Source: a virus
Virus genome (UHGV): UHGV-0371280
Length of the DNA stretch: 34,882 nt
Strand: one strand, 5' to 3'
Part shown: positions 11,917 through 34,882 of the stretch, piece by piece
Position numbering within the stretch: the stretch's first letter is position 1
Layout of the letters: every line of letters starts with the position of its first letter
Made by a program: the position numbers and the translations under genes
The notes under the pieces: generated by a model
Databases searched by the model: none
What the model was told of the DNA's origin: nothing
Seen by the model: the letters and a program-made list of their open reading frames with translations, nothing else

Positions 11917-11942
<26 letters not shown>

Positions 11943-12680: not shown

Positions 12681-12799
12681 ACATTAAAGGCAGAATATTC
12701 ACTCTGATATTACGCATTGTTTTGCTTTTGTAGATTCGCAATTTACGGTAAAAATACTTTTGCTATTTCTTCGTACCATAAATGCACAGGAGTATCTTC

Positions 12800-13490: not shown

Positions 13491-13500
13491 CAAAGATTGC

Positions 13501-14018: not shown

Positions 14019-14375
14019 GTATATCCAGCGACGTAGCTGGTCACATGCGCCTTTGATATCGCCCTGGTTTATTTTGCGAAGAAGCGTCGATGTTCTGAAA
14101 TTGCCAGCACCCACGTTGTAAACGAATGAGTAAAGAGCGCCGCGCGTTGTTTCCGGTATATCGACTTTGATGTACGGGTTAATTTGTCTGGCGACCGTGG
14201 CAAGGTCTTTATTCAAGAGTGTTTTGCATTCTGCTTTGGTATACGTTTTACCGAGCATGATGTCTTTTCCTGTATGCCCGTGACATACAGTCCATACACC
14301 AACAATATCTTTGTATGGTATGTAGCTGACACCTTCCAGACCATCGTTACCACTTGGGCCAGTGATTAACACTGA
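13941..14375 (-). pseudogene. R: Endolysin R (T4-lysozyme fold, phage-21 SAR-endolysin type), 5'-truncated and lacking the N-terminal SAR segment
   Basis: ...[144 protein letters not shown] matches phage 21 R from about residue 22 to the end. Upstream of about 14376 the minus-strand frame is only the antisense of the opposing lysozyme remnant; no ATG or SD. Confidence 0.85.
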
Positions 14376-14378
14376 TGC

Positions 14379-14456
14379 GCTGGCGGTAAGCAATGGAAAG
14401 GTCTCATGACTCGTCGTGAGATTGAGCGTGAAATCTGTTTGTGGGGTCAGCAATGA
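14379..14456 (+). pseudogene. Lysozyme R 3' remnant (last 25 codons plus stop) of a second prophage
   Basis: Plus-strand frame reads [25 protein letters not shown], homologous to the C-terminus of the minus-strand lysozyme, ending in TGA overlapping the Rz ATG. A stop codon lies immediately upstream at 14373-14375. Confidence 0.8.
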
Positions 14457-14569
14457 ACAGAGTAACCGCGATTATCTCCGCTCTGGTTATCTGCATCGTC
14501 GTCTGCCTGTCATGGGGTGTTAATCATTACCGTGATAACGCCATCGCCTACAAAGAACAGCGCGACAAA
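14379..14569. repeat. Right arm of the same inverted repeat (lysozyme 3' remnant plus Rz 5' end)
   Basis: See the left arm at 13828-14018; same evidence. Confidence 0.75.
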
Positions 14570-14917: not shown

Positions 14918-15054
14918 AATCTTAACTACAATATGATTCATTTTGATGATTGTTTCATAAGGAACAGTGAAGTAAGATCTAAGAGGAGTTAAATTTTATA
15001 CAGTATAATCATAATATTGCAGCAAGGTGGTTATAATTGAAAGAATATTTAGAT

Positions 15055-16512: not shown

Positions 16513-16598
16513 TATATGGCTGATTTATAATTGTGAGTTTAATATTATGTTGACTCACTCATTGATCCAATACCTAACTTTACCAGCAACCCCTCCGT

Positions 16599-16633
16599 CC
16601 CCAGTAGCACTGGCTGCTGGGGTGCGTTTTATT
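16599..16633 (+). terminator. Possible intrinsic terminator downstream of trkG
   Basis: CCCCAGTAG-cactgg-CTGCTGGGG forms a 9-bp stem (one G-U pair), followed by tgcgTTTTaTT. The U-tract is set back 4 nt from the stem, so this is weak. Confidence 0.35.
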
Positions 16634-16649
16634 CATAAAGCAAGGCTGT

Positions 16650-18369: not shown

Positions 18370-18556
18370 CGTTCTGGATGTTGATCTGAACCGACTGAAA
18401 GAAAATCGGGAAGCAATGACAGATTTTTATGCGGCCATCCGTAAGGGCAGAGCGAAAGGTGAAGCCGAGTTACGAGCGGCATTGTTTAAGCTTGCCAGAA
18501 AAGGGGATGCCTTTGCTCTGCGCGAACTACTCAGGGTGGATAAAAATCAGGACTAA
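18305..18556 (+). CDS. Small hypothetical protein (possible helix-turn-helix); start may be ATG 18347
   Basis: 83 aa ORF ...MTAQQIADVLDVDLNRLKENREAMTDFYAAIRKGRAKGEAELRAALFKLARKGDAFALRELLRVDKNQD, immediately upstream of terS in the same orientation. Confidence 0.45.
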   Translation: MIPYSKVESLAACRMTAQQIADVLDVDLNRLKENREAMTDFYAAIRKGRAKGEAELRAALFKLARKGDAFALRELLRVDKNQD

Positions 18557-18559
18557 CTG

Positions 18560-20936: not shown

Positions 20937-20938
20937 TT

Positions 20939-22345
20939 ATGGCTGATATATCAACACCCAACCTCGACTATAACGATATGCTGGAGGCGTGGGATATTAA
21001 CGACGCATTGATGGGCGGTACGCTTGAAATGCGCAGGCAGGGGGAAAATTATCTCCCCAAATGGCCTAATGAAGATGAAGACGCTTATAAAAAACGCCTG
21101 TCTGTGGCTACGTTACTTCCTGTGTATGAAGAAAGCATCAAACAAAATATTGGGCGCATATTTGCAGAGCCGACAGTATTGAGTGAGGAAACGCCGGAAA
21201 AAATCAGGGAATATGCAGAAAATATCGACATGGAGGGGAGCCGACTGGATGTGTGGGCGCAGCAATTTTTCAGTCTCGCATTTCAGTATGGTGTGGCACA
21301 TGCGCTGGTGGACTATCCACGAACGGATATGAACGAGATTCGGACAAAAGCCGATGAAAACGCGGCCGGTGGTCGCCCGTACGTTACGATGCTGAATCCA
21401 CGCCAGGTTATTGGATGGAAATCGAAAGTTGAAAAAGGGAAAGTTGTTCTCACTGATTTGCGTATAAAAGAGGTCATCATTATTGATGGTGATGATTTCG
21501 GGCAGAAGAAGGTGGAGCAGATCCGCCATATTATGCCCCGTCGAGTAGAAATTTATCGACGCAGCGAAGGTACTAATGGCGAATCTGTCTGGATGCTTCA
21601 TGAGTCATGGAATACCAGCCGTGATGATATTCCTCTGGTAACACTGTATACGAAGAAAACAGGGTTTATGCGTGGTACACCGCCATTGCTTAATCTTGGC
21701 TTGCTGAATATCAAGCACTGGCAAAGCCAGAGCGAGCAGGACAATATTCTTCATGTTGCCCGCGTTCCATTGCTGGTGGCCTACGGGCTGGACAGGAATG
21801 AAGAACTGACGGTTGGTGCATCCACGGCTACGATTTTTGAGGACAGAACAAAAAATGGCCTCGAATATGTTGAACATAGTGGCGCAGCGATAGAATCTGG
21901 CGAAACATCACTTGAGAAGCTGGAAAATCAGATGCGTCATGCCGGCGCTAAACTTCTGCGGGCTGAAAATACATCCACCAAATCTGTTGATCAGACTAAT
22001 GAAGAGCGGATGCAGGAACACTCGCCGCTTTATACAATGGCGAACTCCCTCGAAGATGCCCTCGATAATATTCTCCAGATAATGGCGGAATGGAGCGGAG
22101 AGAGTTGCGGTGGCAATGTGGATGTGCGCACTGAACTGGATGTATCTGCCCAGGTGTTTGACTCATCCTCCGCGCTGGCTGTTCAGTCATTGCGTCAGGG
22201 CGGTGATATACGTCAGATTGATGCGGTTCGGGTGTTGCAGGCGTTGAAATTTATCGATCAGGATTCCCGTCCAGAGGATGTGATCGATGAATTAAAAAAT
22301 CAGAGTGTAATGTTGATGGAAATCAATGATGCAAACCGTGAATGA
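20939..22345 (+). CDS. Portal protein (putative)
   Basis: 468 aa directly downstream of terL, the canonical portal position and size. Family not determined. Confidence 0.65.
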   Translation: MADISTPNLDYNDMLEAWDINDALMGGTLEMRRQGENYLPKWPNEDEDAYKKRLSVATLLPVYEESIKQNIGRIFAEPTVLSEETPEKIREYAENIDMEGSRLDVWAQQFFSLAFQYGVAHALVDYPRTDMNEIRTKADENAAGGRPYVTMLNPRQVIGWKSKVEKGKVVLTDLRIKEVIIIDGDDFGQKKVEQIRHIMPRRVEIYRRSEGTNGESVWMLHESWNTSRDDIPLVTLYTKKTGFMRGTPPLLNLGLLNIKHWQSQSEQDNILHVARVPLLVAYGLDRNEELTVGASTATIFEDRTKNGLEYVEHSGAAIESGETSLEKLENQMRHAGAKLLRAENTSTKSVDQTNEERMQEHSPLYTMANSLEDALDNILQIMAEWSGESCGGNVDVRTELDVSAQVFDSSSALAVQSLRQGGDIRQIDAVRVLQALKFIDQDSRPEDVIDELKNQSVMLMEINDANRE

Positions 22346-23441
22346 ACGGCTGCGTGATGAATCAATTGCTCATGCAGTCTGGATATCCCGCTATAGCACT
22401 GGTGTGGCTGCCAGAATGGTGAAAATACTGAATGACAGCGATGCGGAGCTTACAGCTCGCCTGCTGGTAGCACTGGACAGCCTCGATCCTGGTAGTTTTA
22501 CCGTTACGCGCCTGGAGTCACTTCTGGCGAGTGTCAGAGAGGTTAACCGCGCTGCTATTAACAGCATGTTTACCAGTCTCTCCGGAGAGCTGAACGAGCT
22601 GGCAATTTATGAGGCTGGTTATCAGTTAAGTCTGTTTGATTCTCTGCTACCTGATTTTGTTGCTGATGTTCACCCTCTGGTTGGTATATTTTCTGATGCA
22701 CTTTACGCCGCTGCAATGGCGCGACCATTCCAGGGACGACTGCTCAGTGAGTGGGCCTTGGATCTTGAGGCGGATCGGCTCAGACGCATAACAAATACGG
22801 TGCGTCAGGGTTTTTTGCTGGGGGATACCAATGAGCAGATCGCAAGAAAAATTCGGGGACATGTCAGCAAGGGATTTCAGGATGGTGCATTGCAGATGAG
22901 CCGGGCTAATGCGGCCAGCATTGCAAAAACAGCGGTTGGACATCTTGCTGCTACTGCCCGTGAGAGTTTTGCCAGCGCGAATAATGATTTGATTAAGGGT
23001 AAGCAATGGTTATCAACGCTTGATAATCGTACTACGCCACAATGTCGAATCAGGGATCGCCTCAAATATACGCTGGATAATAAACCTGTAGGTCACAGTG
23101 TGCCTTATTTGCATGGGCCGGGAAAAATTCATTTCTGCTGCCGCTCAACGGAAACGTTCATTCTGAAATCAGCGAAGGAACTGGGTATTGATGTTCGTGA
23201 TATTTCCCCGGCTGAGCGGGCCAGCATGGATGGCGTGGTGGCCGGAGATACAACCTACAGGGAATGGTTTTTGCGTCAGCCTTACACCAGACAAAAACAG
23301 ATTGTGGGGGAAACCCGGGCAAAGCTGATTCGGGATGGCGGTATGTCGCCAGATGAATTTTACACCGATAAAGGCGAATGGCTGACGCTGAAGCAACTCC
23401 GTGAGCGTGATGCACAGGTATTCAGAAAAGCAGGGATTTAA
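22326..23441 (+). CDS. Head morphogenesis protein (SPP1 gp7 / Mu F-like, putative)
   Basis: 371 aa; C-terminal segment ...NRTTPQCRIRDRLKYTLDNKPVGHSVPYLHGPGKIHFCCRST... resembles the Mu F-like motif. Follows the portal gene with a 20-nt overlap. Confidence 0.6.
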   Translation: MMQTVNERLRDESIAHAVWISRYSTGVAARMVKILNDSDAELTARLLVALDSLDPGSFTVTRLESLLASVREVNRAAINSMFTSLSGELNELAIYEAGYQLSLFDSLLPDFVADVHPLVGIFSDALYAAAMARPFQGRLLSEWALDLEADRLRRITNTVRQGFLLGDTNEQIARKIRGHVSKGFQDGALQMSRANAASIAKTAVGHLAATARESFASANNDLIKGKQWLSTLDNRTTPQCRIRDRLKYTLDNKPVGHSVPYLHGPGKIHFCCRSTETFILKSAKELGIDVRDISPAERASMDGVVAGDTTYREWFLRQPYTRQKQIVGETRAKLIRDGGMSPDEFYTDKGEWLTLKQLRERDAQVFRKAGI

Positions 23442-23460
23442 ATAAATCATTTATTACAAC

Positions 23461-23488
23461 AGGCTACCTTCGGGTGGCCTTTTTTATT
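23461..23488 (+). terminator. Intrinsic terminator (UUCG-type tetraloop hairpin plus U-tract)
   Basis: AGGCUACC-uucg-GGUGGCCU followed by TTTTTTATT. Preceded by an AT palindrome AATAAATcATTTATT (23441-23455) overlapping the upstream stop codon. Confidence 0.6.
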
Positions 23489-23545
23489 GCTGCGATCCGG
23501 ATGGTGAGCAGCGTAACTGTCGGAAGACTTAAACCAGGTACTAAT

Positions 23546-24310
23546 ATGAAACTGAAAACGGTCGAGATTAACGGAAAACAATACGCAGAAATTGATACTG
23601 CTGGCCTGCCAGTTTATGTGCACGACGATGGTAAAGAAATCGGCTTCGATGCACCGCTGGCGATAAAAAAAATTACAGAGCTTAATGGCGAGGCAAAAAA
23701 TCATCGCCTGGCTAAAGAAGCTGCAGAGGAAAAACTGGCTAAGTTTGCCGCTATCGAAGACCCGAAGAAGGCGATCGAGGCACTGGAAATGCTGTTAAAA
23801 ATCGACCAGAAAAAGCTGATCGATGCGGGACAGGTTGACCAGGTTAAGGCAGAAATTACGAAAAATTTTCAGCAGCAATTAGATGAAGAAAAGCAACGCT
23901 CTCAGATGCTGGAGACGCAGCTTTACGATTCTATGATTGGCGGTAGTTTTGCGGGTTCAAAATATATTGCCGATAAAATTGCGATCCCGGCAGATTTATT
24001 ACAAGCCCGCTTCGGGCAGGCATTCAAAGTGGAAGAAGGGAAGATCGTTGCTTATGACGCTTCCGGCAACAAAATTTATTCCCGCGCGAAGCCTGGCGAA
24101 CTGGCGCAGTTTGATGAGGCGCTGGAGTTCCTTGTCGAAAATTACCCTCAGAAAGACTACATCCTGAAAGCCAGTGGCAACAATGGCGGCGGCTCCCGTC
24201 CGACACAGCATGATATTGGTCAGAAAACGATGAAACGCTCTGCTTTTGATGCACTGGATGTTGCAGGTAAGCAAAACGCATTGAAAGACGGTATCACAAT
24301 CGTTGATTAA
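23546..24310 (+). CDS. Scaffolding protein (putative)
   Basis: 254 aa from ATG 23546 (MKLKTVEINGKQYAEIDTAGLPVYVHDDGKEIGF...), K/E/A-rich with predicted coiled-coil character, sitting between the head morphogenesis and capsid genes. The ORF-track start at 23474 lies inside the terminator. Confidence 0.5.
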   Translation: MKLKTVEINGKQYAEIDTAGLPVYVHDDGKEIGFDAPLAIKKITELNGEAKNHRLAKEAAEEKLAKFAAIEDPKKAIEALEMLLKIDQKKLIDAGQVDQVKAEITKNFQQQLDEEKQRSQMLETQLYDSMIGGSFAGSKYIADKIAIPADLLQARFGQAFKVEEGKIVAYDASGNKIYSRAKPGELAQFDEALEFLVENYPQKDYILKASGNNGGGSRPTQHDIGQKTMKRSAFDALDVAGKQNALKDGITIVD

Positions 24311-24408
24311 CACATTTGTCAGCTTCCGGATGGGAGCTGGTGTCAGGGCTGGATAGCTCATTACTCCATCTATTCACAATTACGCAAATTTTTAAGGAAT
24401 ATTTAATT

Positions 24409-25548
24409 ATGGCTGGAAATACCCTGACCGGGTTGATCCCGACTATTTATACCGCCCTGGATGTTGTATCCCGTGAGCAGGTAGGTTTTATCCCTGCGGT
24501 AGCAAAAAACGTAAAAGCTGACGCCGCAGCAAAAGATCAGACGGTAACCGCGCCAGTTGCGCCTGAGGCGAAAACCGAAGATATCGTACCGGGGCCGTCA
24601 GCTCCGAATACCGGTGATCAAAATATTGGCACTGTTGATGTAAAAATTACTAAATCCAAAATGGCACCGGTTAAATGGAATGGTGAAGAACAACTGGCTC
24701 TTGGCCCTTCAGGGACTTACAACACCATTCTGGCTGATCAGTTCAAGCAGGCTTTTCGCGCCCTTGCAAACGAGGTTGAGGCTGATCTTGGTGCGTTGTA
24801 TTTCGGTGCTTCCCGCGCCGTGGGAACCGCAGGGACAACGCCGTTTGGTGTTAAAGATGATCTTTCTGATGCTGCTCTGGCTCGTCAGGTTCTGGAGGAT
24901 AACGGCGCACCGACAACCGATCTGCAGATGGTGCTTGGCTCCACTGCCATTGCTAATTTGCGCGGAAAACAGTCTGTATTGTTTAAAGTGAATGAATCCG
25001 GCACTGAACAGCTACTGCGTGAGGGCGTGTTGGGGCGTCTGGAGGGATTCAATATTCACAGTTCGGCAGGTGTGAAACGAGCGCCAAAGGTTGCTGCAAC
25101 TGGTTATCTCGTGAATGGAGAGAAAAAAGAAGGCGATGTTCTTATTTCCATTGATACTGGTTCGGGGAGTATTTCTGCAGGTCAGATTGTTACGTTCGCT
25201 GGTGATCCGAATCAGTATGTTGTGGCAGCAGCGACCAGCAATCTGATTACTCTTGCAGCGCCCGGACTGCGTCAGGATCTGGCCGATGATACTGCCATCA
25301 CAGTTGTTGGGGCCTTTACGGCAAATATGGCGTTTGATCGCAACGCGTTTCTGCTGGCATCCCGTACTCCGGCAATGCCGGAAGGTGGCGATAATGCTGA
25401 TGATGTAATGAATGTTACGGACCCGATTTCAGGGATTACGTTCCAGATTGCACTGTATCGTCAGTATCGCCAGGTGCGCTATGAAGTTGGACTGGCATGG
25501 GGTGTTTCATCAGTGAAGCCGGCACATGGTTGTCTGATTCTTGGTTAA
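24409..25548 (+). CDS. Major capsid protein (putative)
   Basis: 379 aa from ATG 24409 (MAGNTLTGLIPTIYTALDVVSREQVGFIPAVAKNVK...), with AAGGAA upstream, after the scaffold gene and followed by a strong terminator. Confidence 0.6.
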   Translation: MAGNTLTGLIPTIYTALDVVSREQVGFIPAVAKNVKADAAAKDQTVTAPVAPEAKTEDIVPGPSAPNTGDQNIGTVDVKITKSKMAPVKWNGEEQLALGPSGTYNTILADQFKQAFRALANEVEADLGALYFGASRAVGTAGTTPFGVKDDLSDAALARQVLEDNGAPTTDLQMVLGSTAIANLRGKQSVLFKVNESGTEQLLREGVLGRLEGFNIHSSAGVKRAPKVAATGYLVNGEKKEGDVLISIDTGSGSISAGQIVTFAGDPNQYVVAAATSNLITLAAPGLRQDLADDTAITVVGAFTANMAFDRNAFLLASRTPAMPEGGDNADDVMNVTDPISGITFQIALYRQYRQVRYEVGLAWGVSSVKPAHGCLILG

Positions 25549-25556
25549 ACATTCAA

Positions 25557-25579
25557 ACGGGGCTTCGGCCCCATTTTTA
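25557..25579 (+). terminator. Intrinsic terminator after the capsid gene
   Basis: GGGGC-uucg-GCCCC perfect stem-loop followed directly by ATTTTT. Confidence 0.7.
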
Positions 25580-25590
25580 ATGGGGGGCAT

Positions 25591-25767
25591 ATGGCCGGAT
25601 TAACTAAAGAGCAAAGAGCACAGCGTGAAGCCGCACAAAAAACGCAAATTGAGTTAGTGGTTATGGTGACCGATTATCAGATGTTTCCCGGCGCACCAAC
25701 TATCGCTAATGTTCATCCTGATGAAGTTGACAACTGGAAGGCTATGGGCTGGAAAACTCAGGAGTAA
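25591..25767 (+). CDS. Small hypothetical protein (58 aa)
   Basis: MAGLTKEQRAQREAAQKTQIELVVMVTDYQMFPGAPTIANVHPDEVDNWKAMGWKTQE; GGGGGG 3 nt upstream of the ATG (short spacing). Stop lies 3 nt before the next gene. Below the ORF-track cutoff. Confidence 0.35.
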   Translation: MAGLTKEQRAQREAAQKTQIELVVMVTDYQMFPGAPTIANVHPDEVDNWKAMGWKTQE

Positions 25768-25770
25768 CAC

Positions 25771-26166
25771 ATGATCACTTACGTGACCTGTGATGACGTT
25801 GATAATGCGTTTGGGAACGCCTGGACGAGTGAGAACGCTAAAAATAAAGCTGTTTTAATGGCTAATGCCTGGCTTAATGGCTTCAACCTGAAAATTAACC
25901 CATCCCGTATTCCGGAAGAGGTAAAACTTGCGGGAGCATATGCAGCCAGAATTGCCTCATTCGGTAAGTTGTTTCAGCAGAAAAATGATTCTGGCGTTGT
26001 TATCAGTAAAGCCGTGTCGGCTGACGGGGTCAGTGTATCGAAATCATTTTCTGAGTTGCCAGCAAACAGCACTGCATTGCTTGAACCCGATTTACAGCTT
26101 GCGATAGCACTGCTGAAACCGTACGGACTTAGTCGCTCACAAGTCAGGGTTGTGAGGGGGGGATAA
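25771..26166 (+). CDS. Head-tail connector / head completion protein (putative, by position)
   Basis: 131 aa; AGGAG 6 nt upstream; first of four tightly packed ~130 aa genes between capsid and tail tube. Confidence 0.4.
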   Translation: MITYVTCDDVDNAFGNAWTSENAKNKAVLMANAWLNGFNLKINPSRIPEEVKLAGAYAARIASFGKLFQQKNDSGVVISKAVSADGVSVSKSFSELPANSTALLEPDLQLAIALLKPYGLSRSQVRVVRGG

Positions 26167-26549
26167 TGGGGCTTCGTGAAGAGATTCAGTCAGAGGTTGC
26201 CGCTGCTTTTGATGAGGATTTAGCGGACGCCGTGAGTGATTTTTCTGGTTCTTACGTTACGCACCGGCACTGGGATCCTGTGACGGAAACTGGCGGCGAA
26301 TCCACCGCAATCTATACCGGGCGAGGCGTGTTGACACGTTATAAGCTGGGCAGAATTGATGGGATTAATATTTTGCATGGTGACCTTAAATTAACCGCTC
26401 TGGTATGCGAGGTTACGGATAAACCAGCTGTCGACCATATTATTGAGATTTATGATCCTGTATCAAGGCAGTTACAACGATACGAGGTAATTACAGCAAG
26501 TGTAGATCCTTCCGCATCAGTTTACTCTATCCAGTTAAGGAGAGCGTAA
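26166..26549 (+). CDS. Head closure / neck protein (putative, by position)
   Basis: 127 aa; TAATG overlap with the upstream gene. Confidence 0.4.
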   Translation: MGLREEIQSEVAAAFDEDLADAVSDFSGSYVTHRHWDPVTETGGESTAIYTGRGVLTRYKLGRIDGINILHGDLKLTALVCEVTDKPAVDHIIEIYDPVSRQLQRYEVITASVDPSASVYSIQLRRA

Positions 26550-26930
26550 ATGGCAAAGGCATGGGATATAGAACCGTCAATATTTGCCGGGATGATTGAG
26601 GAAGATGTAGGGCTGAAGATTCGCTACATCGCTATTCAGATTCTTACTGCTATTGATATTGCTGCTCCGGTTGATACCGGACGTTTCAGAAATAACAACC
26701 TGGTGTCGTTACAGCATCCCGATTTTGGTATATCTGATAACGTGGATCCGAACGGTACGATTGCTGTTCAGCGTGGGATCGGGGTTATTTCGAAAGCTGC
26801 AAATTACGGAGTTATTTATATCCAGAATAACCTTCCTTATGCAGAGGCTCTTGAAAACGGTCATTCACAACAAGCGCCAACTGGCGTGTATGCCAACGCT
26901 TTTCATGGTGTTTTACAGGCTTACAAATGA
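26550..26930 (+). CDS. HK97 gp10-like head-tail joining protein (putative)
   Basis: 126 aa with ...IAAPVDTGRFRNNN..., resembling the gp10-family VDTGxLR signature. Confidence 0.5.
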   Translation: MAKAWDIEPSIFAGMIEEDVGLKIRYIAIQILTAIDIAAPVDTGRFRNNNLVSLQHPDFGISDNVDPNGTIAVQRGIGVISKAANYGVIYIQNNLPYAEALENGHSQQAPTGVYANAFHGVLQAYK

Positions 26931-27319
26931 CGTTTACTGAAATCAGAAATACGGTTATTTCCAGAATGACGGCACAGACGATTATTGATGGAAAAGACGT
27001 ATTGTATCCGAACGCGCCAACGTTCGATCCTTCCGGTAAGTTAATCTGGGCGCGGTTAAGTAATATTCCCGGGCAGGCTGGAGTTAATGAAATTGGCGCG
27101 GGGCCGATTGTTTATCGCACGGGGATAATCATTATTCAGTTATTTGTCCCCGCAGGTTCTGGTTCAAAACTCATTACTGAGACAGCCGATAAATTGCGGG
27201 AACTGTTTGAGTTTCAGGATGACGATCGTCTCAGTTACCAGGCTGTTTCCTCAATAGCCGTTGGCGAAAAGAATGGCTGGTTCCAGCTTAATCTTCAAAT
27301 TCCATATCGCGCGCTCTAG
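26927..27319 (+). CDS. Tail completion / tail terminator protein (putative, by position)
   Basis: 130 aa; 4-nt overlap with the upstream gene; directly precedes the tail tube gene. Confidence 0.4.
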   Translation: MTFTEIRNTVISRMTAQTIIDGKDVLYPNAPTFDPSGKLIWARLSNIPGQAGVNEIGAGPIVYRTGIIIIQLFVPAGSGSKLITETADKLRELFEFQDDDRLSYQAVSSIAVGEKNGWFQLNLQIPYRAL

Positions 27320-27345
27320 CGCAATTAATGACATAGGAGGCTCCT

Positions 27346-28308
27346 GTGAGTTCAGGTGCAAAGGTTATCTCGGCATTTATCCGGGAGACGGTTGCAGGCA
27401 CTACGCCAGCAAGTGGTGACTGGAGTTTATTAAAACGCACAAGCTGGGGAGTAAAACCCACCCAGAATAAAGGCGAAAATAATGAGATTGGTGGCTCCCG
27501 GATGGCTCAGGGGGCGACGCCTGGCACTGTGGATGTCGGCGGTGATGTTGGTACCAAATTTCGCTGGGGTCAACATGATGATTTTCTTGCATCCTGTTTC
27601 GGCGCGGAATGGTCAGGCGATTCTCTGACAATGGGGAATGAGCGAATAACATTTTCTCTGGCGACCTATGCGTCCGATGTCGGAATTGCCTCTGTCGTCA
27701 GAGGAGCGCAGGTTGGCTCATGGAAAATGCAGATCCCTAACGACGGCGATATTACAGCGACCGTAACCTTTGCCGGACTGGACTGGGAATCAAAGGCCGA
27801 TGATACGAATTTTATCAAAGGCGAACCTGTGGATAGTGCAGGAAAGCTACGTTATTCGTTTAAGGAGGTTTCAGCAGTAAGCCTGAATGGTGTTGCCGGA
27901 GGTAACGGTTTTTGTATCGACAGTTTTGATATTCAGTTCGATAACAAACTCCAGACACAGCGTTGTATCGGGACTGGCTCGCCTTATGCAGGAGCAAATA
28001 TTCCGACTACTTTTACACCGTCCGGTACGGTGACGCTTTCATGGTCTAAAGCCGCGTGGGAAATCTGGAGTAAAACACTGACTGGAGAAACAGTTCCGTT
28101 CAGCTTCACGCTTTCGAATGGAGAGGGGGCATACACTTTCAGTTTCCCGAAGGTTCAGGTGTCAGGTGAATGGCCTGATGGGGGTAATAGCGACATTATC
28201 CAGGTTCAATTGAGCATTACCGCAGCAGATGAAGCACCTACGATAACCAGAAAAAAAAATTCCCCGGCTGCCGTGATCGCAAAAGCCAGTGCTGAGGCGA
28301 TTAGTTGA
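27346..28308 (+). CDS. Major tail tube protein (putative)
   Basis: 320 aa, GTG start with AGGAGG 5 nt upstream, immediately before the chaperone and tape measure genes. Confidence 0.55.
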   Translation: MSSGAKVISAFIRETVAGTTPASGDWSLLKRTSWGVKPTQNKGENNEIGGSRMAQGATPGTVDVGGDVGTKFRWGQHDDFLASCFGAEWSGDSLTMGNERITFSLATYASDVGIASVVRGAQVGSWKMQIPNDGDITATVTFAGLDWESKADDTNFIKGEPVDSAGKLRYSFKEVSAVSLNGVAGGNGFCIDSFDIQFDNKLQTQRCIGTGSPYAGANIPTTFTPSGTVTLSWSKAAWEIWSKTLTGETVPFSFTLSNGEGAYTFSFPKVQVSGEWPDGGNSDIIQVQLSITAADEAPTITRKKNSPAAVIAKASAEAIS

Positions 28309-28356
28309 TTTTCCGTTATTCCTCCTGTGGTACTGCCCTACAGGGGGACGCATTGA

Positions 28357-28818
28357 ATGAGGTTATGGATGTTTATTCTTAATCAGAAAATTATCATTGG
28401 TGGAGAACGCTGGTTTACGCCAATGAAGGACTTAAAACCTGTAGACGGGTTAAAACTGTTGGTGGCAAGCAGCGATAACGATCAGTATCGCTCCCGTAAT
28501 GCATTAATCCGTCGCCACATTGAGAAAATGGATGCCAGTTTGCACGTCGGAACGAAGGAGTTTGATATTTCAAAGGTTTCCGAGGTGGATTCTGTTGATG
28601 ATTTACTCATTGATAATGCCGCTCGTTATCTGCTGAAAGACTGGAAAGGGGTTGGTGAACTGGTTAATGGTGTTGAGGTTGCACTGGAATATACGGCAGA
28701 ACGAGGGATCGCGCTGCTTAAGCAGAATCCAGAGTTGTACTGGCAGATCCTTGCAGAAGCAGCCAGCATCGCCCAGGGTAAAGAGCAGCAGAAGCAGGAT
28801 ACGATAAAAAAGCCATAG
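28357..28818 (+). CDS. Tail assembly chaperone (G-like)
   Basis: 153 aa; GGGGGA 7 nt upstream of ATG 28357; terminates 6 nt after an A_AAA_AAG slippery site, with an open -1 frame continuing to 29126. Confidence 0.75.
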   Translation: MRLWMFILNQKIIIGGERWFTPMKDLKPVDGLKLLVASSDNDQYRSRNALIRRHIEKMDASLHVGTKEFDISKVSEVDSVDDLLIDNAARYLLKDWKGVGELVNGVEVALEYTAERGIALLKQNPELYWQILAEAASIAQGKEQQKQDTIKKP

Positions 28819-29126
28819 CTGCCCAGCGGTGGTTATCGGAGTTCGGGGGAGAAAGGGGGGAAAAGGCAAGATGGAAGCGAGAAAAACTCAGGTTGCCACC
28901 GATACCGGAACCAGAAATAGACCCGGTGCTTAAGGAGTTGTTGTACGCCTATTCGGTAATATCCCGTGCCCGACGTTATGCTGGAATGGCTGGGGTGCCT
29001 TTGCCTTTATCTCTGACAGAGATAAATGAATATTTAGCCACTCATCCGGTATTGATTGAGCGCGATGAATTTGAAGCAGTGATCTTTGCACTGGATGACC
29101 AGTATTTTCAGGAGCAGTGTGTGTAG
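28357..29126 (+). CDS. Tail assembly chaperone G-T-like fusion product (via -1 frameshift at 28806-28812)
   Basis: Joined frames predict about 256 aa: G-like body plus extension ...AIAAQRWLSEFGGERGEKARWKREKLRLPPIPEPEIDPVLKELLYAYSVISRARRYAGMAGVPLPLSLTEINEYLATHPVLIERDEFEAVIFALDDQYFQEQCV. Confidence 0.7.
28806..28812 (+). other. Programmed -1 frameshift slippery heptamer A_AAA_AAG
   Basis: Zero-frame codons ata AAA AAG cca TAG; the -1 frame is open from 28782 and continues to the stop at 29124-29126. Confidence 0.8.
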
Positions 29127-29246
29127 TTGTTAATTACGTACACTCTGTTACAGAGATGTGATGGTGTCTTTAATTAAATCGATGATGCTCCTGGAGAAAA
29201 GCATTGCGTGGCCTCGTAATCGCTATATCTACTATTATGTCGCCTG

Positions 29247-29272
29247 AAACCCACTTCGCGGTGGGTTTTTTG
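29247..29272 (+). terminator. Intrinsic terminator between the chaperone and tape measure genes
   Basis: AAACCCAC-uucgcg-GUGGGUUU 8-bp stem, with the T-run TTTTTT continuing from the 3' arm. Confidence 0.6.
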
Positions 29273-29291
29273 TTGTCAGGAGTTTTAATAA

Positions 29292-32200
29292 ATGGCAGAG
29301 CAAACCTCGCGTCTCGCAATAATTATTGATAGCACTGGAGCGAAAAATAATGCTGACAATCTGACCTCCTCATTAGTCAAAATGACGCAGGCTGGGGAAA
29401 CTGCTGCAAATAGCGCAGGGAAAGTGACTAAGGCAACAGAAGATGAGAAGAACGCGCTCGCAAAATTAAAAGCAGCTATTGATCCAGTTGGTGCCGCAAT
29501 TGATACTGTCGGTCGACGCTATTCTGAATTAAAGAAATTTTTCGATAAAGGGCTTATTGATAAAGAAGAATATGAATTTCTTGTCCGTAAACTTAATGAA
29601 ACCACAGAGGAATTGAGCGGGGTTGCGCAAGCGCAGAGAGAAGCCGAGAAGGCCGGAAAACTTGCTGCCGCCCAGCAGGAAGCGCAGGCTCAGGCCTTTC
29701 AAAGAATGCTGGACAAGATCGACCCTCTGGCTGCGGCGCTAAGAAATCTTGAACAACAGCATGATGAACTTAATGCTGCGTTTGCATCCGGGAAAATAAA
29801 TGGTTCTCAGTTTGAGAATTATAGCCGAAAAATACAGGAAACACGGCGAGAGCTTACCGGAGAGGCTCAGGCAGAGCGAGAAGCAGCAAAAGCGCATGAT
29901 GAACAGGTTGTTGCTTTGCAACGTCTGATTGCTCAACTTGATCCTGTCGGAACTGCTTTTAATCGTCTGGTAGAACAACAGAAACAGCTCAATGAAGCAA
30001 AAGCTAAGGGGATGCTTTCTCCTGAAATGTATGAGGAGCTTTCTGGAAAACTTCGTGCTATGCGGAGTGAGCTTGAGGTTACTCAATCACAATTAAGCAA
30101 AACCGGAATGTCGGCAAAACAAACGGCTTTTGCTATGCGCATGTTGCCTGCACAAATGACGGATATTGTTGTTGGGTTGTCCACTGGTCAGTCGCCATTT
30201 ATGGTGTTAATGCAGCAGGGCGGCCAGCTAAAAGATATGTTCGGTGGGATTGGCCCGGCGATCAAAGGGGTAGGTTCTTATGTGCTGGGATTAATTAATC
30301 CTTTTACCCTGGCCGCAGCAGCCGTTGGGGTCTTAGGACTGGCTTACTATAAAGGCTCTCAGGAGCAGGACGAATTTAATAAATCTCTTATTCTTACCGG
30401 AAATCAGTTGGGGACAACCAGCGGGCAATTGGGCGATTTAGCTCAACGTGCCGGGAATGCGGCTGATTCGACAACTGGTGCTGCGGCGGCAGTATTAAAT
30501 CAGCTTGTGCGTTCGGGAAAGGTAGCGAGCAGTTCGCTGGAGCAAGTGACGACAGCGATAGTAAAAACGAGCGAAGTAACAGGAATATCAACCGAACAAC
30601 TGGTTAATGACTTCAATGAAATTGCAAAGGATCCTGTCAGTGCCATATCAAAACTTAATGATCAGTACCATTTTCTGACACTTGCGACTTATAACCAGAT
30701 TAAGGCGCTACAGGATGAAGGGAACCAGCAGGAGGCCGCCCGCATTGCGACAGAAGAATACTCATCCTCAATGATCCAGCGCACCAACCAGATTAAAGAA
30801 AATCTTGGTTATCTTGAGACTGCATGGAAAGCTGTCGCAGACTCCGCAAAATGGGCATGGGATTCCATGCTGGATATTGGCCGTGAGGCCTCCCTTGATC
30901 AAAAAATCTCAGATGTTCTCCGTCAAATTGATGAAATAGAAAAAAATACCCGATCCGGAGTTTTCGGGTTAGGTGGCATTGGAGATGGCGGAGCTCAAAA
31001 TAAAAGGCTGGCACGATTAAAGCAGCAATTGGGCGTACTTCAAGCAGAAAAAATTGCTCAGGACGTACTAAATTCATCAATAAACGATTACAACAAGCGA
31101 CAACAGGAAGGAATTGAACTCAGACAGAGAGCAGATGCCTTTTCAAAACAATATCAGACCCGGGAGCAGCAGAGAGCTAGTGAACTTGCAAAACTGGAAA
31201 AGCTAAAGAATCAGTATTCAAAGGAAGAATATAATAATCTTATCGCTCAAATAAATGAGCGTTATAAAGATCCAAAGCAACCAAAGGCGAAAGATTATTC
31301 TGATGATGCAGCCCAACGAATGATTGATCATCTGAATCAACAGAATGCGTTACTAAGTTCACAAGCTGAGTTGACCGTTAAATTAAGTTCCTCTGAACAG
31401 GAACTGGTTAAGTGGCGTCAGCGGATTGCCGACCTAGAGTCACGACCATCATCGAAATTAACCCAGGATCAGAAATCGCTTCTCTTACACCGGGAAGAAA
31501 TAACCACGTTGATGGAGAAAAATGTTGCGATTGAAAAAAATAACAGGCTAATCAAGGAATCCGCCGAAATAACAGCATGGCGTGATTCATTGCAGGCTTC
31601 GATTGATAATCGTCAGCAGGGGTATGATATTCAGATTGCTGGTTATGGGGTTGGCGGTAAAAATCAGCAACGCCAGCAGGAATTACTGCGGATTGAACAT
31701 GGATATAACAATCAGCGTCTGCAACTTGAACGTGACTATGCAGATAAATCCCGTGGAATGTCAGATCATGTTTTTCAAGAGAAAATGCAGGCTCTGAATG
31801 ATGCTCTGGAACGGGAAAAAGAAATTGTCAGACAGAAAAACGAGCAGCTCGATATTCAGGCAGGAGACTGGGTTAGTGGTGCCTCCCAGGGATTCAATAA
31901 CTGGCTGGATGACACTAAGGATATCAGTGAGCAGATAAAATCAACCACGACTCAGATGTTTGATGGGATGACCGATGCGCTGGGTGATTTTGTCACGACA
32001 GGCAAGGCAAATTTTCGTTCTTTCGCTACTTCCGTGATTTCGGATCTTAGTCGAATAGCATTAAAGGCTTCAATTACTGGGATTTTCGACAGCATTAGTA
32101 ACAGTTCTTCTGGGGGGATTTTAGGAACTATCGGGAGTGCTATTAGTAAATTTATTCCGAATGCAAAGGGCGGTGTTTATGAGTCTCCGTCATTGAGCAC

Positions 32201-32525
32201 GTATTCGAACGGTATTTATGATTCCCCGCAATTTTTTGCTTTTGCAAAAGGGGCTGGTGTTTTTGGTGAGGCTGGACCGGAAGCCATTATGCCATTAACA
32301 CGAACTTCCGATGGTTCTCTTGGTGTCAGAGCTATTAATAGTAAAAGTGGTAATGGAGGCGGAGATATTACCTATGCCCCTGTATACCAAATCACTATTC
32401 AAAATGACGGCCAGAATGGAGAGATTGGCCCTCAGGCAATAAAAGCACTTATGGGGATGGTTGATCAGCGGGTGCAGGGCAATCTGTTAAATATGCGACG
32501 TGATGGGGGAATGTTAAGTGGCTAA
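29292..32525 (+). CDS. Tail tape measure protein (lambda H-like)
   Basis: 1077 aa; conserved block [39 protein letters not shown] parallels lambda [40 protein letters not shown]; C-terminus [35 protein letters not shown] is also H-like; long coiled-coil middle. Confidence 0.93.
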
Positions 32526-32856
32526 TACGGAAGAATTTCACTGGTTACCAGAGGATGGAATGAAAACAGAAAATAAACCATCGATAAAAACTGTAAGATT
32601 TGGCGATGGTTATGAGCAACGAAGTCCAAATGGACTTAATCATTCTCTGCGCGTTTTCACCTGTGATTTCAAAGTTGAGGCGAATGAACGTGATTCATTT
32701 GAAAAATTTTTAGCCCGGCATGAAGGCTATAAATCTTTTTTTTGGCGCCCGCCGGGTATTAACAGAAAAATCAGAGTGGTGTGTCGAACGTGGTCAGCGA
32801 CAGAACATATCACCTATACCGATTTTTCGTGTCAGTTTGACGAAGTGGTGATCTGA
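32518..32856 (+). CDS. M: Minor tail protein M
   Basis: 112 aa with ...[24 protein letters not shown]...KSFFWRPP..., aligning with lambda gpM (RKVRFGDGYSQRAPAGLN...KSFLWTPP). GTG start overlapping the tape-measure stop. Confidence 0.9.
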
Positions 32857-33554
32857 TGCAGGACATACAACAGGAAACGCTGAATGAATGCATTCGTGCG
32901 GAGCAGTCGGCCAGCGTGGTGCTCTGGGAAATCGACCTGACCGAGGTAGGCGGGGATCGCTACTTTTTCTGTAATGAGCAGAACGAAAAAGGTGAGTCTG
33001 TCACCTGGCAGAGTCGGCAGTATCAGGCCTATCCCATTCAGGGGAGTGGATTTGAGATGAACGGCAAGGGCAGTGCTGCCCGTCCGACACTGACGGTCTC
33101 TAACCTGCACGGCATGATCACCGGGATGGCGGAAGATCTGCAGAGTCTGGTCGGTGGAACGGTGGTCCGGCGTAAGGTTTACGCCCGCTTTCTGGATGCG
33201 GTGAACTTCGTCAACGGAAACAGCGAAGCCGATCCGGAGCAGGAGGTGATCAGCCGCTGGCGCATCGAGCAGTGCAGCGAACTGAGCGCGGTCAGTGCCT
33301 CTTTTGTACTGTCCACGCCGACTGAAACGGATGGCGCTGTTTTTCCGGGACGTATCATGCTGGCCAACACCTGCACCTGGACCTATCGCGGCGATGAGTG
33401 CGGTTATAGCGGTCCGGCGGTCGCGGATGAATATGACCAGCCGACGTCCGATATCACGAAGGATAAATGCAGCAAATGCCTGAGTGGCTGTAAGTTTCGC
33501 AATAATGTCGGCAACTTTGGCAGCTTCCTTTCCATTAACAAACTTTCGCAGTAA
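32856..33554 (+). CDS. L: Minor tail protein L
   Basis: 232 aa [72 protein letters not shown]..., near-identical to lambda gpL. Confidence 0.95.
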   Translation: MQDIQQETLNECIRAEQSASVVLWEIDLTEVGGDRYFFCNEQNEKGESVTWQSRQYQAYPIQGSGFEMNGKGSAARPTLTVSNLHGMITGMAEDLQSLVGGTVVRRKVYARFLDAVNFVNGNSEADPEQEVISRWRIEQCSELSAVSASFVLSTPTETDGAVFPGRIMLANTCTWTYRGDECGYSGPAVADEYDQPTSDITKDKCSKCLSGCKFRNNVGNFGSFLSINKLSQ

Positions 33555-33559
33555 ATCCC

Positions 33560-33715
33560 ATGACAGAGACAGAATCAGCGATTCTGGCGCACGCCCGGCG
33601 ATGTGCGCCAGCGGAGTCGTGCGGCTTCGTGGTGAGAACGCCGGAGGAGGAAAGATATTTTCCCTGCGTGAATATCTCCGGTGAACCGTTACGCCACCAG
33701 TCATCCCCGCGATGA
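33560..33715 (+). pseudogene. K: Tail assembly protein K, 5' fragment (codons 1-43) fused to antisense K sequence; stops after 51 codons
   Basis: MTETESAILAHARRCAPAESCGFVVRTPEEERYFPCVNISGEP matches the lambda gpK N-terminus, then reads LRHQSSPR*. Breakpoint about 33683-33688. Confidence 0.8.
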
Positions 33716-33867
33716 AAATCCGGCATCTCAATTCCCGCCAGATGGTAAGCGTCCCGGAACAGCGTGTAACAGTCCGTTACCCCGTGCTCAAAGCGCCGCC
33801 CGGTGAGATGCGGCACACAGCGGAATTTATGAATCGCCCCCCGGCAGACCAGCCACCACGGCAAATC
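33685..33867 (-). pseudogene. K: Inverted internal fragment of K (about codons 89-149)
   Basis: Minus strand encodes DLPWWLVCRGAIHKFRCVPHLTGRRFEHGVTDCYTLFRDAYHLAGIEMPDFHRGDDWWRNG, the gpK middle region, bounded on both sides by plus-strand K and I sequence. Confidence 0.8.
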
Positions 33868-33868
33868 C

Positions 33869-34339
33869 ATGGCACGCATCTGCCTTTACGGGGATTTACA
33901 ACGATTTGGCCGCCGCATCGACCTTCGAGTGAAAACGGGGTCCGAAGCCATCCGGGCGCTGGCCATGCAGATCCCGGCATTTCGTCAGAAACTGAGCGAC
34001 GGCTGGTACCAGGTACGCATTGCCGGGCGTGATGCAGGTGAAACCGAATTGTCTGCCCGTCTTAATGAGCCGCTGGAAAATGGTGCCGTGATCCATATCG
34101 TGCCGCGTCTGGCAGGAGCCAAAAGTGGCGGTGTGTTTCAGGCTGTGCTGGGGGCGGCTGTTATGGCGGTTGCTATATGGATGAAAGGCAGATGCGTGCC
34201 ATGCCCGGTGACGCCAGAGGGAGTGTGTGCGTCGCTGCCATTTGTCGGTGTACCTCTCTCGTTTGCTCAGTTGTTCAGGAATATGGTGCAGCAGCTCGCT
34301 GTCACCACAGTAAATGGCGGCATGATTCGGCACCGATGA
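33869..34339 (+). pseudogene. I: Tail assembly protein I, 5' portion (about codons 1-100) running into antisense K sequence
   Basis: MARICLYGDLQRFGRRIDLRVKTGSEAIRALAMQIPAFRQKLSDGWYQVRIAGRD...VPRLAGAKSGGVFQAVLGAA matches the lambda gpI N-terminus. From about 34170-34184 the frame is antisense of the K 3' end (IWMKGRCVPCPV...). Confidence 0.75.
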
Positions 34340-34531
34340 ACCAAAGCAGCACAGCAGCACGTCGCCAGGCTGCGCCTCTGTCAGTGCGACACGGTAAAAA
34401 CCAGTCGCCTCCATATTGTCAAGATAGAGATTCTGACCGTTACGCCACCAGTCATCCCCGCGATGAAAATCCGGCATCTCAATCCCCGCCAGATGATAAG
34501 CATCCCGGAACAGCGTGTAACAGTCCGTCAC
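34184..34531 (-). pseudogene. K: Inverted fragment of K (about codons 118-233)
   Basis: Minus strand encodes VTDCYTLFRDAYHLAGIEMPDFHRGDDWWRNGQNLYLDNMEATGFYRVALTEAQPGDVLLCCFGSSVPNHAAIYCGDSELLHHIPEQLSKRERYTDKWQRRTHSLWRHRAWHASAF. Its 5' end abuts the ATG of the next plus-strand K copy. Confidence 0.8.
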
Positions 34532-34882
34532 ATGACACAGACAGAATCAGCGATTCTGGCGCACGCCCGGCGATGTGCGCCAGCGGAGTCGTGCGGCTTC
34601 GTGGTAAGCACGCCGGAGGGGGAAAGATATTTCCCCTGCGTGAATATCTCCGGTGAGCCGGAGGCGTATTTCCGTATGTCGCCGGAAGACTGGCTGCAGG
34701 CAGAAATGCAGGGTGAGATTGTGGCGCTGGTCCACAGCCACCCCGGTGGTCTGCCCTGGCTGAGTGAGGCCGACCGGCGGCTGCAGGTGCAGAGTGATTT
34801 GCCGTGGTGGCTGGTCTGCCGGGGGACGATTCATAAGTTCCGCTGTGTGCCGCATCTCACCGGGCGGCGTTTTGAGCACGGG
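34532..34882 (+). CDS. K: Tail assembly protein K, N-terminal 116 codons of a second copy; runs off the right edge
   Basis: MTQTESAILAHARRCAPAESCGFVVSTPEGERYFPCVNISGEPEAYFRMSPEDWLQAEMQGEIVALVHSHPGGLPWLSEADRRLQVQSDLPWWLVCRGTIHKFRCVPHLTGRRFEH... is colinear with lambda gpK to the window end. Confidence 0.85.
   Translation, partial: MTQTESAILAHARRCAPAESCGFVVSTPEGERYFPCVNISGEPEAYFRMSPEDWLQAEMQGEIVALVHSHPGGLPWLSEADRRLQVQSDLPWWLVCRGTIHKFRCVPHLTGRRFEHG

What the first reader, a model, noticed from the sequence alone, without database searches (positions are those of the whole stretch)
33869..34202. 19-bp inverted repeat of the K/I overlap sequence flanking the I fragment
ATGGCACGCATCTGCCTTT (the I start embedded in the K 3' end) occurs at 33869-33887 and as its exact reverse complement at 34184-34202. 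The I 5' segment is thus bracketed by inverted copies of the same junction sequence, each attached to a different inverted K piece. This is the signature expected if the natural K/I overlap acted as a recombination or template-switch point twice.
Basis: seen in the sequence. Interest (0 to 1): 0.45.

Follow-up and report, generated by a model that had tools for sequence, protein, structure and literature searches.

The report
Scrambled tail-gene pieces at contig end
The 20-base inverted repeat is real in the sequence, but it is only the small overlap left where two pieces of ordinary lambda-type tail genes (K and I) were joined back-to-front in a unique jumble at the very end of the sequence, which is most likely a sequencing or assembly artefact and not a recombination site.

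Summary
The repeat exists. It is 20 bp, not 19 (33868-33887 / 34184-34203), and none is expected by chance. It is not a site. The last 1.3 kb of the window is five pieces of the lambdoid L-K-I region on alternating strands: A (K codons 1-41, +), B (K 89-149, -), C (I 1-105, +), D (K 118-233, -) and E (K 1-117, +). The window ends exactly where D and E would abut. The 20-mer is the stretch R1384-1403 shared by C and D, and its length equals C (316 nt) minus the fold-back offset at junction J3 (296 nt). A sixth piece boundary of the same kind lies 19 kb away in the lysozyme gene (14378|14379). All five junctions are strand switches. They are blunt or nearly so (0, 1, 0, 0 and up to 4 nt of microhomology), join two parts of the same allele, and restart 296-415 nt away. 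Changes between the two prophage alleles happen separately, in register, inside identical stretches. No junction occurs in 5,426 complete E. coli genomes, 50,697 phage records, PLSDB, IMG/VR, GTDB representatives or JGI metagenomes. Best reading: chimeric contig end (about 0.6). A genuine one-off rearrangement stays possible (about 0.25). Interest is low.

The parts
32856..33554 (+). Intact tail gene L (232 aa), the last undisturbed gene of the Rac-type prophage module
   Evidence: ORF. It is 99.97% identical to the LD26-1 Rac-type prophage. The same protein sits in canonical L-K-I-J contexts in all 10 places read.
33560..33684 (+). Piece A: K (allele K1, Rac type) codons 1-41 plus 2 nt (R705-829)
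   Evidence: 0 mismatches to the Rac-type K gene in 125 nt. Junction J1 at 33684|33685 has 1 nt of microhomology.
33685..33867 (-). Piece B: K1 codons 89-149 (R1151 to 969), inverted. R830-968 and R1152-1383 are missing on either side.
   Evidence: 100% identical to Rac-type references on the minus strand.
33868..33887 (+). Left arm of the 20-bp inverted repeat, the first 20 nt of piece C (R1384-1403; K 3' end and I start codon)
   Evidence: The blunt junction J2 lies immediately to its left.
33868..34183 (+). Piece C: 1 nt plus I codons 1-105 (R1384-1699), Rac type. It includes the last 65 nt of K.
   Evidence: 100% identical to Rac-type references. Pfam Lambda_tail_I matches residues 1-84.
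34184..34203 (-). Right arm of the 20-bp inverted repeat, the first 20 nt of piece D (R1403 to 1384)
   Evidence: The blunt junction J3 lies immediately to its left. The arm is naturally continuous with the rest of K on the minus strand.
34184..34531 (-). Piece D: K codons 118-233, inverted. It is K2 type at R1056-1241 and Rac (K1) type at R1287 and R1337.
   Evidence: 24 mismatches to Rac-type K and 2 to Ecol_881 K. The best natural match in 5,426 genomes is 99.4%, never 100%.
34532..34882 (+). Piece E: K2 codons 1-117 (R705-1055). It ends at the last base of the window, one base before D's inner end (R1056).
   Evidence: 2 mismatches to PhiR30_1 K. E + rc(D) matches single natural K genes at 99.4% over 699 nt. 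Junction J4 has up to 4 nt (TCAC) of microhomology.
14041..14378 (-). Rac-type lysozyme (rrrD) nt 61 to about 398, inverted. Further left it continues in register into the lambda-like prophage's lysozyme, Rz and late genes (window 1-14040, minus strand).
   Evidence: 0 mismatches to Rac rrrD over nt 61-360 against 14 to DX6. For nt 361-498 the counts are 0 to DX6 and 7 to Rac.
14379..14456 (+). Rac-type rrrD from codon 141 to its end, on the right side of the blunt head-to-head junction J0 (14378|14379), followed by Rz, trkG and the Rac-type late genes
   Evidence: No complete E. coli genome covers this junction.

Best explanation
The 20-bp inverted repeat is a geometric by-product of a chimeric sequence end and is not a functional or recombinogenic element. 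The record is a 34.9-kb contig whose two ends lie inside lambdoid tail genes (H and K). Its last 1.3 kb, and one internal point in the lysozyme gene, consist of short stretches of two prophages' multi-copy genes joined on alternating strands. Shown: each strand switch joins two parts of the same allele, restarts 296-415 nt away in gene coordinates, and is blunt or nearly blunt. Changes between the two prophage alleles occur separately, in register, inside stretches identical in both. Piece C starts at R1384 because of the preceding switch, and the next switch restarts 296 nt behind C's end at R1403. The two pieces therefore share R1384-1403 in opposite orientation, which is the repeat. Inferred: this is what one expects when mates of a read pair are butt-joined in the wrong relative orientation, since mates come from the same fragment, lie on opposite strands and sit a few hundred nt apart. 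Fold-back chimeric reads taken into a consensus would give the same result. The assembler also crosses between near-identical prophage copies. On this reading the arrangement most likely does not exist in the organism's DNA.
For: Piece map and base-level junctions. All five junctions are strand switches with microhomology of 0 (J0), 1 (J1), 0 (J2), 0 (J3) and up to 4 nt (J4). Random blunt joins would give 0 nt 56% of the time and 1 nt 28% of the time. Offsets are 360, 322, 415, 296 and 351 nt (mean 349, sd 45). Such a narrow range has P of about 0.004 for random breakpoints in 1 kb, a post hoc figure. The junctions are intra-allelic. A, B and C have 0 mismatches to the Rac type. The left arm of J0 has 0 mismatches to Rac rrrD over 300 nt against 14 to the lambda-like allele, then switches in register. 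D is K2 type at 24 of 24 sites and then K1 type at the last 2. E + rc(D) is a single natural K gene elsewhere, and the window ends exactly at their split. Uniqueness: 0 of 5,426 complete E. coli genomes, 0 of 50,697 phage records and 0 of 72,556 plasmids hold at least 80% of 33400-34882 in one place. The same holds for J0. Exact junction strings have 0 hits in IMG/VR, GTDB representatives and JGI metagenomes, and the chimeric ORFs are not on record. The breakpoints fall in the lysis cassette and in K/I, the segments shared among lambdoid prophages. Many IMG/VR contigs end within a few hundred nt of the 19-mer. The pieces show no decay (0 mismatches) although K and I are destroyed and J is absent.
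Against: No reads, coverage or assembly metadata are available, so the artefact is inferred and not shown. Standard de Bruijn or overlap assemblers do not normally butt-join pieces without overlap, and I cannot name the program or step responsible. Eight or nine of 11 piece ends fall on codon boundaries (binomial p about 0.001-0.009, post hoc), which a read-pair artefact does not explain. The searched collections lack draft E. coli assemblies as DNA and Shigella genomes, so 'unique' means unique within what was searched. The K1 typing of the distal part of D rests on only two sites.
Confidence: 0.6

Rival explanations
1. A genuine, very recent complex rearrangement in the cell. Repeated fold-back strand switching during replication or repair (FoSTeS/MMBIR-like, 'DEL-INV-DEL' and inverted-duplication patterns) occurred within a Rac-type prophage. 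Homologous exchanges with a second lambdoid prophage then joined the two, killing the tail-tip genes. The 20-mer would again be only the overlap of two pieces.
For: Every junction is an intramolecular (same-allele) strand switch with a short, similar offset, which is the geometry of fold-back template switching. The A-B-C part is a classic inversion flanked by two deletions. The in-register allele switches look like ordinary homologous recombination between prophages. The left half of the window could be produced by a small inversion in rrrD followed by a large inversion through homologous recombination with the other prophage's lysozyme gene (inference).
Against: Three of five junctions have no microhomology at all, and E. 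coli has no efficient blunt end-joining pathway (established knowledge). At least five illegitimate events plus two homologous ones would be needed at two loci 19 kb apart, yet the pieces carry no mutations. No junction is seen in any other genome or contig. The sequence stops exactly at a breakpoint.
Confidence: 0.25
2. An amplification artefact in the DNA itself: multiple-displacement-amplification-type chimeras (phi29 strand displacement) that were then assembled faithfully.
For: In MDA, 85% of chimeras are inverted joins with an intervening deletion, and they are mostly intramolecular and proximal (PMC1855051). This matches the strand switches, the deletions beside B and the same-allele rule.
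Against: 93.5% of proximal inverted MDA chimeras show at least 2 nt of complementarity at the join, whereas here only 1 of 5 does. MDA chimeras are individually rare, and five would have to reach the consensus of one contig. This rival is a sub-case of 'not present in the organism' and overlaps with the best explanation.
Confidence: 0.08
3. The K/I overlap 19/20-mer is itself a recombination or template-switch hot spot, or a crossover site for a site-specific invertase (as in Hin/Gin/Pin switches or shufflons), and was used twice.
For: Two breakpoints fall within 20 nt of each other in gene coordinates (roughly 4-6% by chance in a 1-kb region, my estimate). The repeat length resembles shufflon 19-bp repeats. 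One IMG/VR contig (L084) has a natural same-strand mosaic joint 7 nt upstream of the 19-mer.
Against: The breakpoints lie at opposite ends of the 20-mer and not inside it, and both joins are blunt. Flipping the segment between the arms does not restore any native arrangement (reasoning). Identical junction types occur where the sequence is absent. 0 of 120 other contigs carry the 19-mer on both strands or next to a strand switch. No recombinase gene lies in or beside the region: the ORFs there are only K/I fragments, and pinR lies about 8 kb beyond I in the reference.
Confidence: 0.03

Closest known systems
Canonical lambda-type tail-tip gene cluster L-K-I-J, in which the I start codon lies inside the 3' end of K
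   Same: All pieces are ordinary sequence of this cluster at 99-100% identity to natural alleles. The 19-mer is the normal K/I overlap, present once per contig in at least 120 IMG/VR contigs and in thousands of E. coli prophages.
   Different: Here the cluster is cut into five pieces on alternating strands, two stretches of K are missing, I is truncated after codon 105 and J is absent.
Inverted chimeric joins made in vitro or in silico (MDA chimeras, Lasken and Stockwell 2007, PMC1855051; fold-back chimeric reads; mis-oriented read pairs)
   Same: Strand switch, short distance between joined points, both sides from the same molecule, and intervening deletions.
   Different: MDA joins usually show at least 2 nt of complementarity, and here most show none. 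The offset is unusually uniform at about 350 nt, which fits a library insert length better than strand displacement (inference).
Replication-based complex rearrangements (FoSTeS/MMBIR, fold-back inversions, DEL-INV-DEL)
   Same: Several closely spaced breakpoints, alternating orientation, and small deletions and duplications.
   Different: Those junctions typically carry microhomology or short insertions. No independent evidence shows that this arrangement exists in a cell.
Site-specific inversion systems (Pin/Gin/Hin switches; Rci shufflons with 19-bp repeats)
   Same: A short inverted repeat flanking a segment inside phage tail genes.
   Different: There is no recombinase next to it and no conserved crossover site, the flanks are not native on the outer sides, and the repeat is simply gene sequence.

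Membership tests
Site-specific DNA inversion switch (Hin/Gin/Pin invertase or Rci shufflon) | A serine or tyrosine recombinase gene adjacent to the invertible segment | tested here: not met
   All ORFs from 32856 to 34882 are L or fragments of K and I. In the intact reference prophage pinR lies about 8 kb beyond I, outside the window.
Site-specific DNA inversion switch (Hin/Gin/Pin invertase or Rci shufflon) | Inverted crossover sites whose outer flanks are the native, continuous sequence, so that flipping the interior gives a second native arrangement | tested here: not met
   The left arm's outer flank is an unrelated inverted K piece joined bluntly (J2). Flipping 33888-34183 leaves an orphan 20-mer.
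Site-specific DNA inversion switch (Hin/Gin/Pin invertase or Rci shufflon) | The same repeat recurs as an inverted pair in related elements | tested here: not met
   0 of 120 IMG/VR contigs with the 19-mer carry it on both strands.
Inversion by homologous recombination between inverted repeats | Crossover in register within shared homology, so that genes stay colinear across the junction | tested here: not met
   All five strand-switch junctions join non-corresponding positions 296-415 nt apart with 0-4 nt of shared sequence. Only the two allele switches, which involve no strand change, are in register.
Template-switch / MDA-type inverted chimera | Inverted orientation of the joined segments, which lie close together on the same molecule | tested here: met
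   5 of 5 junctions are strand switches, the offsets are 296-415 nt, and both sides of each junction are of the same allele.
Template-switch / MDA-type inverted chimera | Priming microhomology (at least 2 nt) at most junctions; 93.5% for proximal inverted MDA chimeras (PMC1855051) | tested here: not met
   Microhomology is 0, 1, 0, 0 and up to 4 nt, a distribution that matches random blunt joins.
Assembly / read-pair artefact | Junctions unsupported by concordant reads, with abnormal coverage or pair orientation at the breakpoints | not testable with these tools
   No reads or assembly metadata are available for the window.
Assembly / read-pair artefact | Breakpoints confined to multi-copy repeats, located at a contig end, and not reproduced in any independent assembly | tested here: met
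   The junctions lie only in the lysozyme and K/I genes shared by lambdoid prophages, and the window ends at a breakpoint. No junction is found in any collection searched.
Lambda K/I gene overlap (what the 19-mer is) | The sequence lies at the 3' end of K and contains the I start codon in canonical L-K-I-J clusters | tested here: met
   The 19-mer is at R1385-1403 of the reference cluster, inside K (R705-1448) and at the annotated start of I. The flanks are canonical in 119 of 120 contigs upstream and 120 of 120 downstream.

The most novel reading that the evidence does not exclude
The scramble is real DNA: a one-off, chromoanasynthesis-like burst of homology-independent fold-back strand switches with a constant step of about 350 nt, confined to prophage genes of one E. 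coli strain and combined with inter-prophage homologous exchange. That would point to an unrecognised replication or repair accident, perhaps during prophage induction or in situ replication, able to shatter and re-join a few hundred bases at a time without microhomology.
Probability: 0.2. Interest if true: 0.5.

Novelty: not a real feature. Interest (0 to 1): 0.1.

Why it matters
If this is an artefact, which is the likely case, it matters only as a quality warning. The last 1.3 kb and the 14378|14379 join of this record should not be used for annotating K/I, for prophage typing or for inferring recombination sites. The constant offset of about 350 nt combined with same-allele strand switching is a usable signature for flagging similar chimeric contig ends. 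If the DNA is real, it would be a rare bacterial example of multi-breakpoint, microhomology-free fold-back rearrangement.

Tried and rejected
(1) Collapsed-repeat idea: that the missing K stretches (R830-968, R1152-1383) are the parts identical between the two alleles. Rejected, because they carry more K1/K2 differences than the retained parts.
(2) Domain-based cuts. The Pfam edges (JAB 4-98, NlpC/P60 111-224, Lambda_tail_I 1-84) do not coincide with the piece edges.
(3) A common sequence motif or restriction site at the ten cut positions. None was seen on reading the junction alignments.
(4) Structural or regulatory role. The repeat pairs trivially in a single-strand fold, there are no Rfam families, and no promoter or terminator excess.
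(5) Finding the source record or an independent copy. Four junction-specific ORFs, five junction strings across three collections and three BLAST collections all came back empty.
(6) D and E as pieces of two unrelated alleles. Rejected, because E + rc(D) is one natural K allele at 99.4%.
(7) Literature on the closest phages (the PhiR series) gave nothing relevant.
(8) Simple conservative inversions. These fail because sequence is both lost (371 nt of K1) and duplicated (the 20-mer).

Full report
OBSERVATION. The reported 19-mer is present exactly as described, at 33869-33887 (+) and as its reverse complement at 34184-34202. No further copies exist with up to 2 mismatches, and none appears in 100 shuffles. 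The repeat finder extends it by one base to 20 nt (33868-33887 / 34184-34203), with 296 nt between the arms. The same call shows that the surroundings hold larger repeats: direct repeats of 140 and 96 nt and an 87-nt inverted repeat that reaches the last base of the window.

WHAT THE WINDOW IS. Positions 14379-33688 are 99.97% identical (5 mismatches in 19,310 nt) to a trkG-linked, Rac-type prophage present in hundreds of E. coli genomes. Positions 1-14378 are the lysis, terminase, head and tail genes of a lambda-like prophage on the minus strand, 98-99.6% identical to PhiR30_1 and to a DX6 prophage. The window starts inside the tape-measure gene H and ends inside K, so it looks like a whole contig with both ends in lambdoid tail genes.

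ANATOMY OF THE END. I mapped the end against canonical L-K-I clusters, using R coordinates in which L = 1-699, K = 705-1448 and I starts at 1385. The last 1.3 kb is five pieces on alternating strands:
- A: up to 33684 = up to R829 (+)
- B: 33685-33867 = R1151 to 969 (-)
- C: 33868-34183 = R1384 to 1699 (+)
- D: 34184-34531 = R1403 to 1056 (-)
- E: 34532-34882 = R705 to 1055 (+)

A, B and C have 0 mismatches to the Rac-type allele (K1). D and E belong to a second allele (K2). Joined as E + rc(D) they match single natural K genes at 99.4% over all 699 nt. D and E are therefore the two halves of one gene, split at codon 117/118 with one half flipped, and the window ends exactly at that split. The 20-mer is simply R1384-1403, the stretch contained in both C (which starts at R1384) and D (which starts at R1403). 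Its length equals C (316 nt) minus the offset of the fold-back at J3 (1699 - 1403 = 296).

JUNCTIONS. Base-level alignments give these microhomologies:
- J1 (33684|33685): 1 nt
- J2 (33867|33868): 0 nt
- J3 (34183|34184): 0 nt
- J4 (34531|34532): up to 4 nt
- J0 (14378|14379), which joins lysozyme codon 21 (-) to lysozyme codon 141 (+): 0 nt

This distribution is what random blunt joins would give. All five junctions are strand switches. In gene coordinates each restarts 296-415 nt from where the previous piece stopped (360, 322, 415, 296, 351; mean 349, sd 45). Random breakpoints in a 1-kb region would give so narrow a range with P of about 0.004, a post hoc figure.

SAME-ALLELE RULE. The left arm of J0 looked at first like the lambda-like prophage's lysozyme. 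Site by site, however, nt 61-360 have 0 mismatches to the Rac-type rrrD and 14 to the DX6 allele, and the sequence changes in register to the lambda-like allele between nt 319 and 398. Likewise D is K2 type at 24 of 24 discriminating sites (R1058-1241) but Rac type at the two distal ones (R1287, R1337). No natural allele in 5,426 genomes matches D exactly. Every blunt strand switch therefore joins two parts of the same allele (J0 Rac|Rac; J1 and J2 K1|K1; J3 K1|K1-like; J4 K2|K2). Changes between prophages happen separately, without strand change, inside stretches identical in both. Both arms of the 20-mer probably derive from the same K1 sequence, although that rests on only two sites.

UNIQUENESS. 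No complete E. coli genome (5,426), phage record (50,697) or PLSDB plasmid holds at least 80% of 33400-34882 in one place. The best matches are canonical L-K-I covered in pieces. The same holds for J0. Exact junction strings have no hit in IMG/VR for J0-J4, in GTDB representatives for J3 and J4 or in JGI metagenomes for J3 and J0. Four junction-specific ORFs are not on record. The neighbouring L protein is extremely common and sits in a canonical L-K-I-J context in all 10 distinct neighbourhoods read.

The 19-mer occurs in at least 120 IMG/VR contigs. It is never on both strands of a contig, its flanks are canonical in 119 of 120 (upstream) and 120 of 120 (downstream), and none of the 120 contigs has L-K-I pieces on both strands. 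L084 has a same-strand natural mosaic joint 7 nt upstream of it, and L110 has a direct partial duplication of L-K-I. Many of these contigs end within a few hundred nt of the 19-mer, which shows that this multi-copy region routinely breaks assemblies.

MECHANISM. Shown: the piece map, blunt same-allele strand switches with an offset of about 350 nt, in-register allele switches, the end of the record at a breakpoint, and uniqueness. Inferred: the most economical single cause is technical. Two mates of a read pair come from one fragment (hence the same allele), lie on opposite strands and sit a few hundred nt apart. Butt-joining them as sequenced gives exactly right-end-to-right-end or left-end-to-left-end junctions with an offset of insert length minus read length and no microhomology. 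Fold-back chimeric reads would do the same. In-register crossings between near-identical prophage copies are the usual repeat error of assemblers. I cannot name the program or show reads, so this stays an inference (confidence about 0.6 that the arrangement is not in the organism's DNA by this route). MDA-type chimeras (PMC1855051) match the orientation and proximity but not the lack of microhomology.

A genuine in vivo fold-back or template-switch cascade remains possible (about 0.25). It would need at least five illegitimate blunt joins at two loci plus two homologous exchanges, all very recent since the pieces carry no mutations. A recombination site in the 20-mer is essentially excluded. 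The breakpoints lie at its two ends, the joins are blunt, flipping the interior restores nothing native, no recombinase is nearby, and junctions of the same kind occur where the sequence is absent.

FUNCTION. None is expected. K is reduced to a 51-aa fusion ORF, I to a 156-aa fusion that keeps only its N-terminal domain, and the NlpC/P60 half of K lies on the other strand. J is absent. No Rfam family, promoter excess or terminator excess is present, and the single-strand fold pairs the repeat trivially.

UNEXPLAINED. Eight or nine of 11 piece ends fall on codon boundaries (B = K codons 89-149, D = 118-233, E = 1-117, C = 1 nt + I codons 1-105, and both sides of J0). The binomial p is 0.001-0.009, post hoc. 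Neither the artefact nor the in vivo model predicts this, and the Pfam domain edges do not coincide with the piece edges.

VERDICT. The repeat is the overlap of two back-to-front pieces in a unique, probably artefactual scramble at a contig end. Interest is low. Reads or resequencing would settle it.

Noticed in passing
window 14378|14379 (context 13577-14841): A blunt head-to-head join inside the phage lysozyme gene links a lambda-like late region (minus strand, 1-14378) to the Rac-type late region (plus strand). The 300-340 nt left of the join are Rac-type rrrD in reverse orientation, changing in register to the lambda-like allele further left. No complete E. coli genome has this junction.
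   Followed up: yes
window 14378-34882, all piece ends: Eight or nine of 11 piece ends fall exactly on codon boundaries, and three pieces start, in coding orientation, at ATG, ATG and GTG. Binomial p is about 0.001-0.009, post hoc. No explanation was found, and the ends do not coincide with Pfam domain edges.
   Followed up: partly
window J0-J4: The distance between the end of one piece and the start of the next, in gene coordinates, is nearly constant (296-415 nt, mean 349). This suggests a characteristic length such as a sequencing-library insert.
   Followed up: partly
window 34870 (R1043): A T where all six reference K alleles have C, 12 nt from the end of the window. It is either a private SNP or a contig-end error.
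   Followed up: no
window 15037-16512: The potassium transporter gene trkG is carried between the lysis cassette and the terminase genes of an apparently complete Rac-type prophage with P22-type capsid and portal genes. This is the same layout as in hundreds of E. coli genomes, unlike the deleted Rac of K-12.
   Followed up: partly
L110 1344-4903 (IMG/VR contig): A direct partial duplication of the tail cluster: L-K-I up to R1674, followed about 100 nt later by L from R193 through K, I and J. The first copy stops within 25 nt of where the window's I fragment stops (R1699).
   Followed up: partly
L084 about 7558 (IMGVR_UViG_2703718852_000003): A natural same-strand mosaic joint 7 nt upstream of the 19-mer. 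A gene unrelated to K precedes a Rac-type I gene, so the I start can act as a module boundary.
   Followed up: partly
L007 (E. coli DX6) 6781-7523 and 8553-11131; L138 (E. coli A25) 7591-7971: In DX6 both K and the tape-measure gene of the closest lambda-like prophage are annotated as frameshifted pseudogenes. In A25 the K2-type prophage has a large deletion that fuses the terminase region directly to M.
   Followed up: no
K gene alleles, R1008-1054: Natural K alleles are mosaics. The K2/A25 allele is PhiR30-like up to about R1010 and Ecol_881-like from R1058, so the natural switch lies just before the D/E split (R1055|1056).
   Followed up: partly
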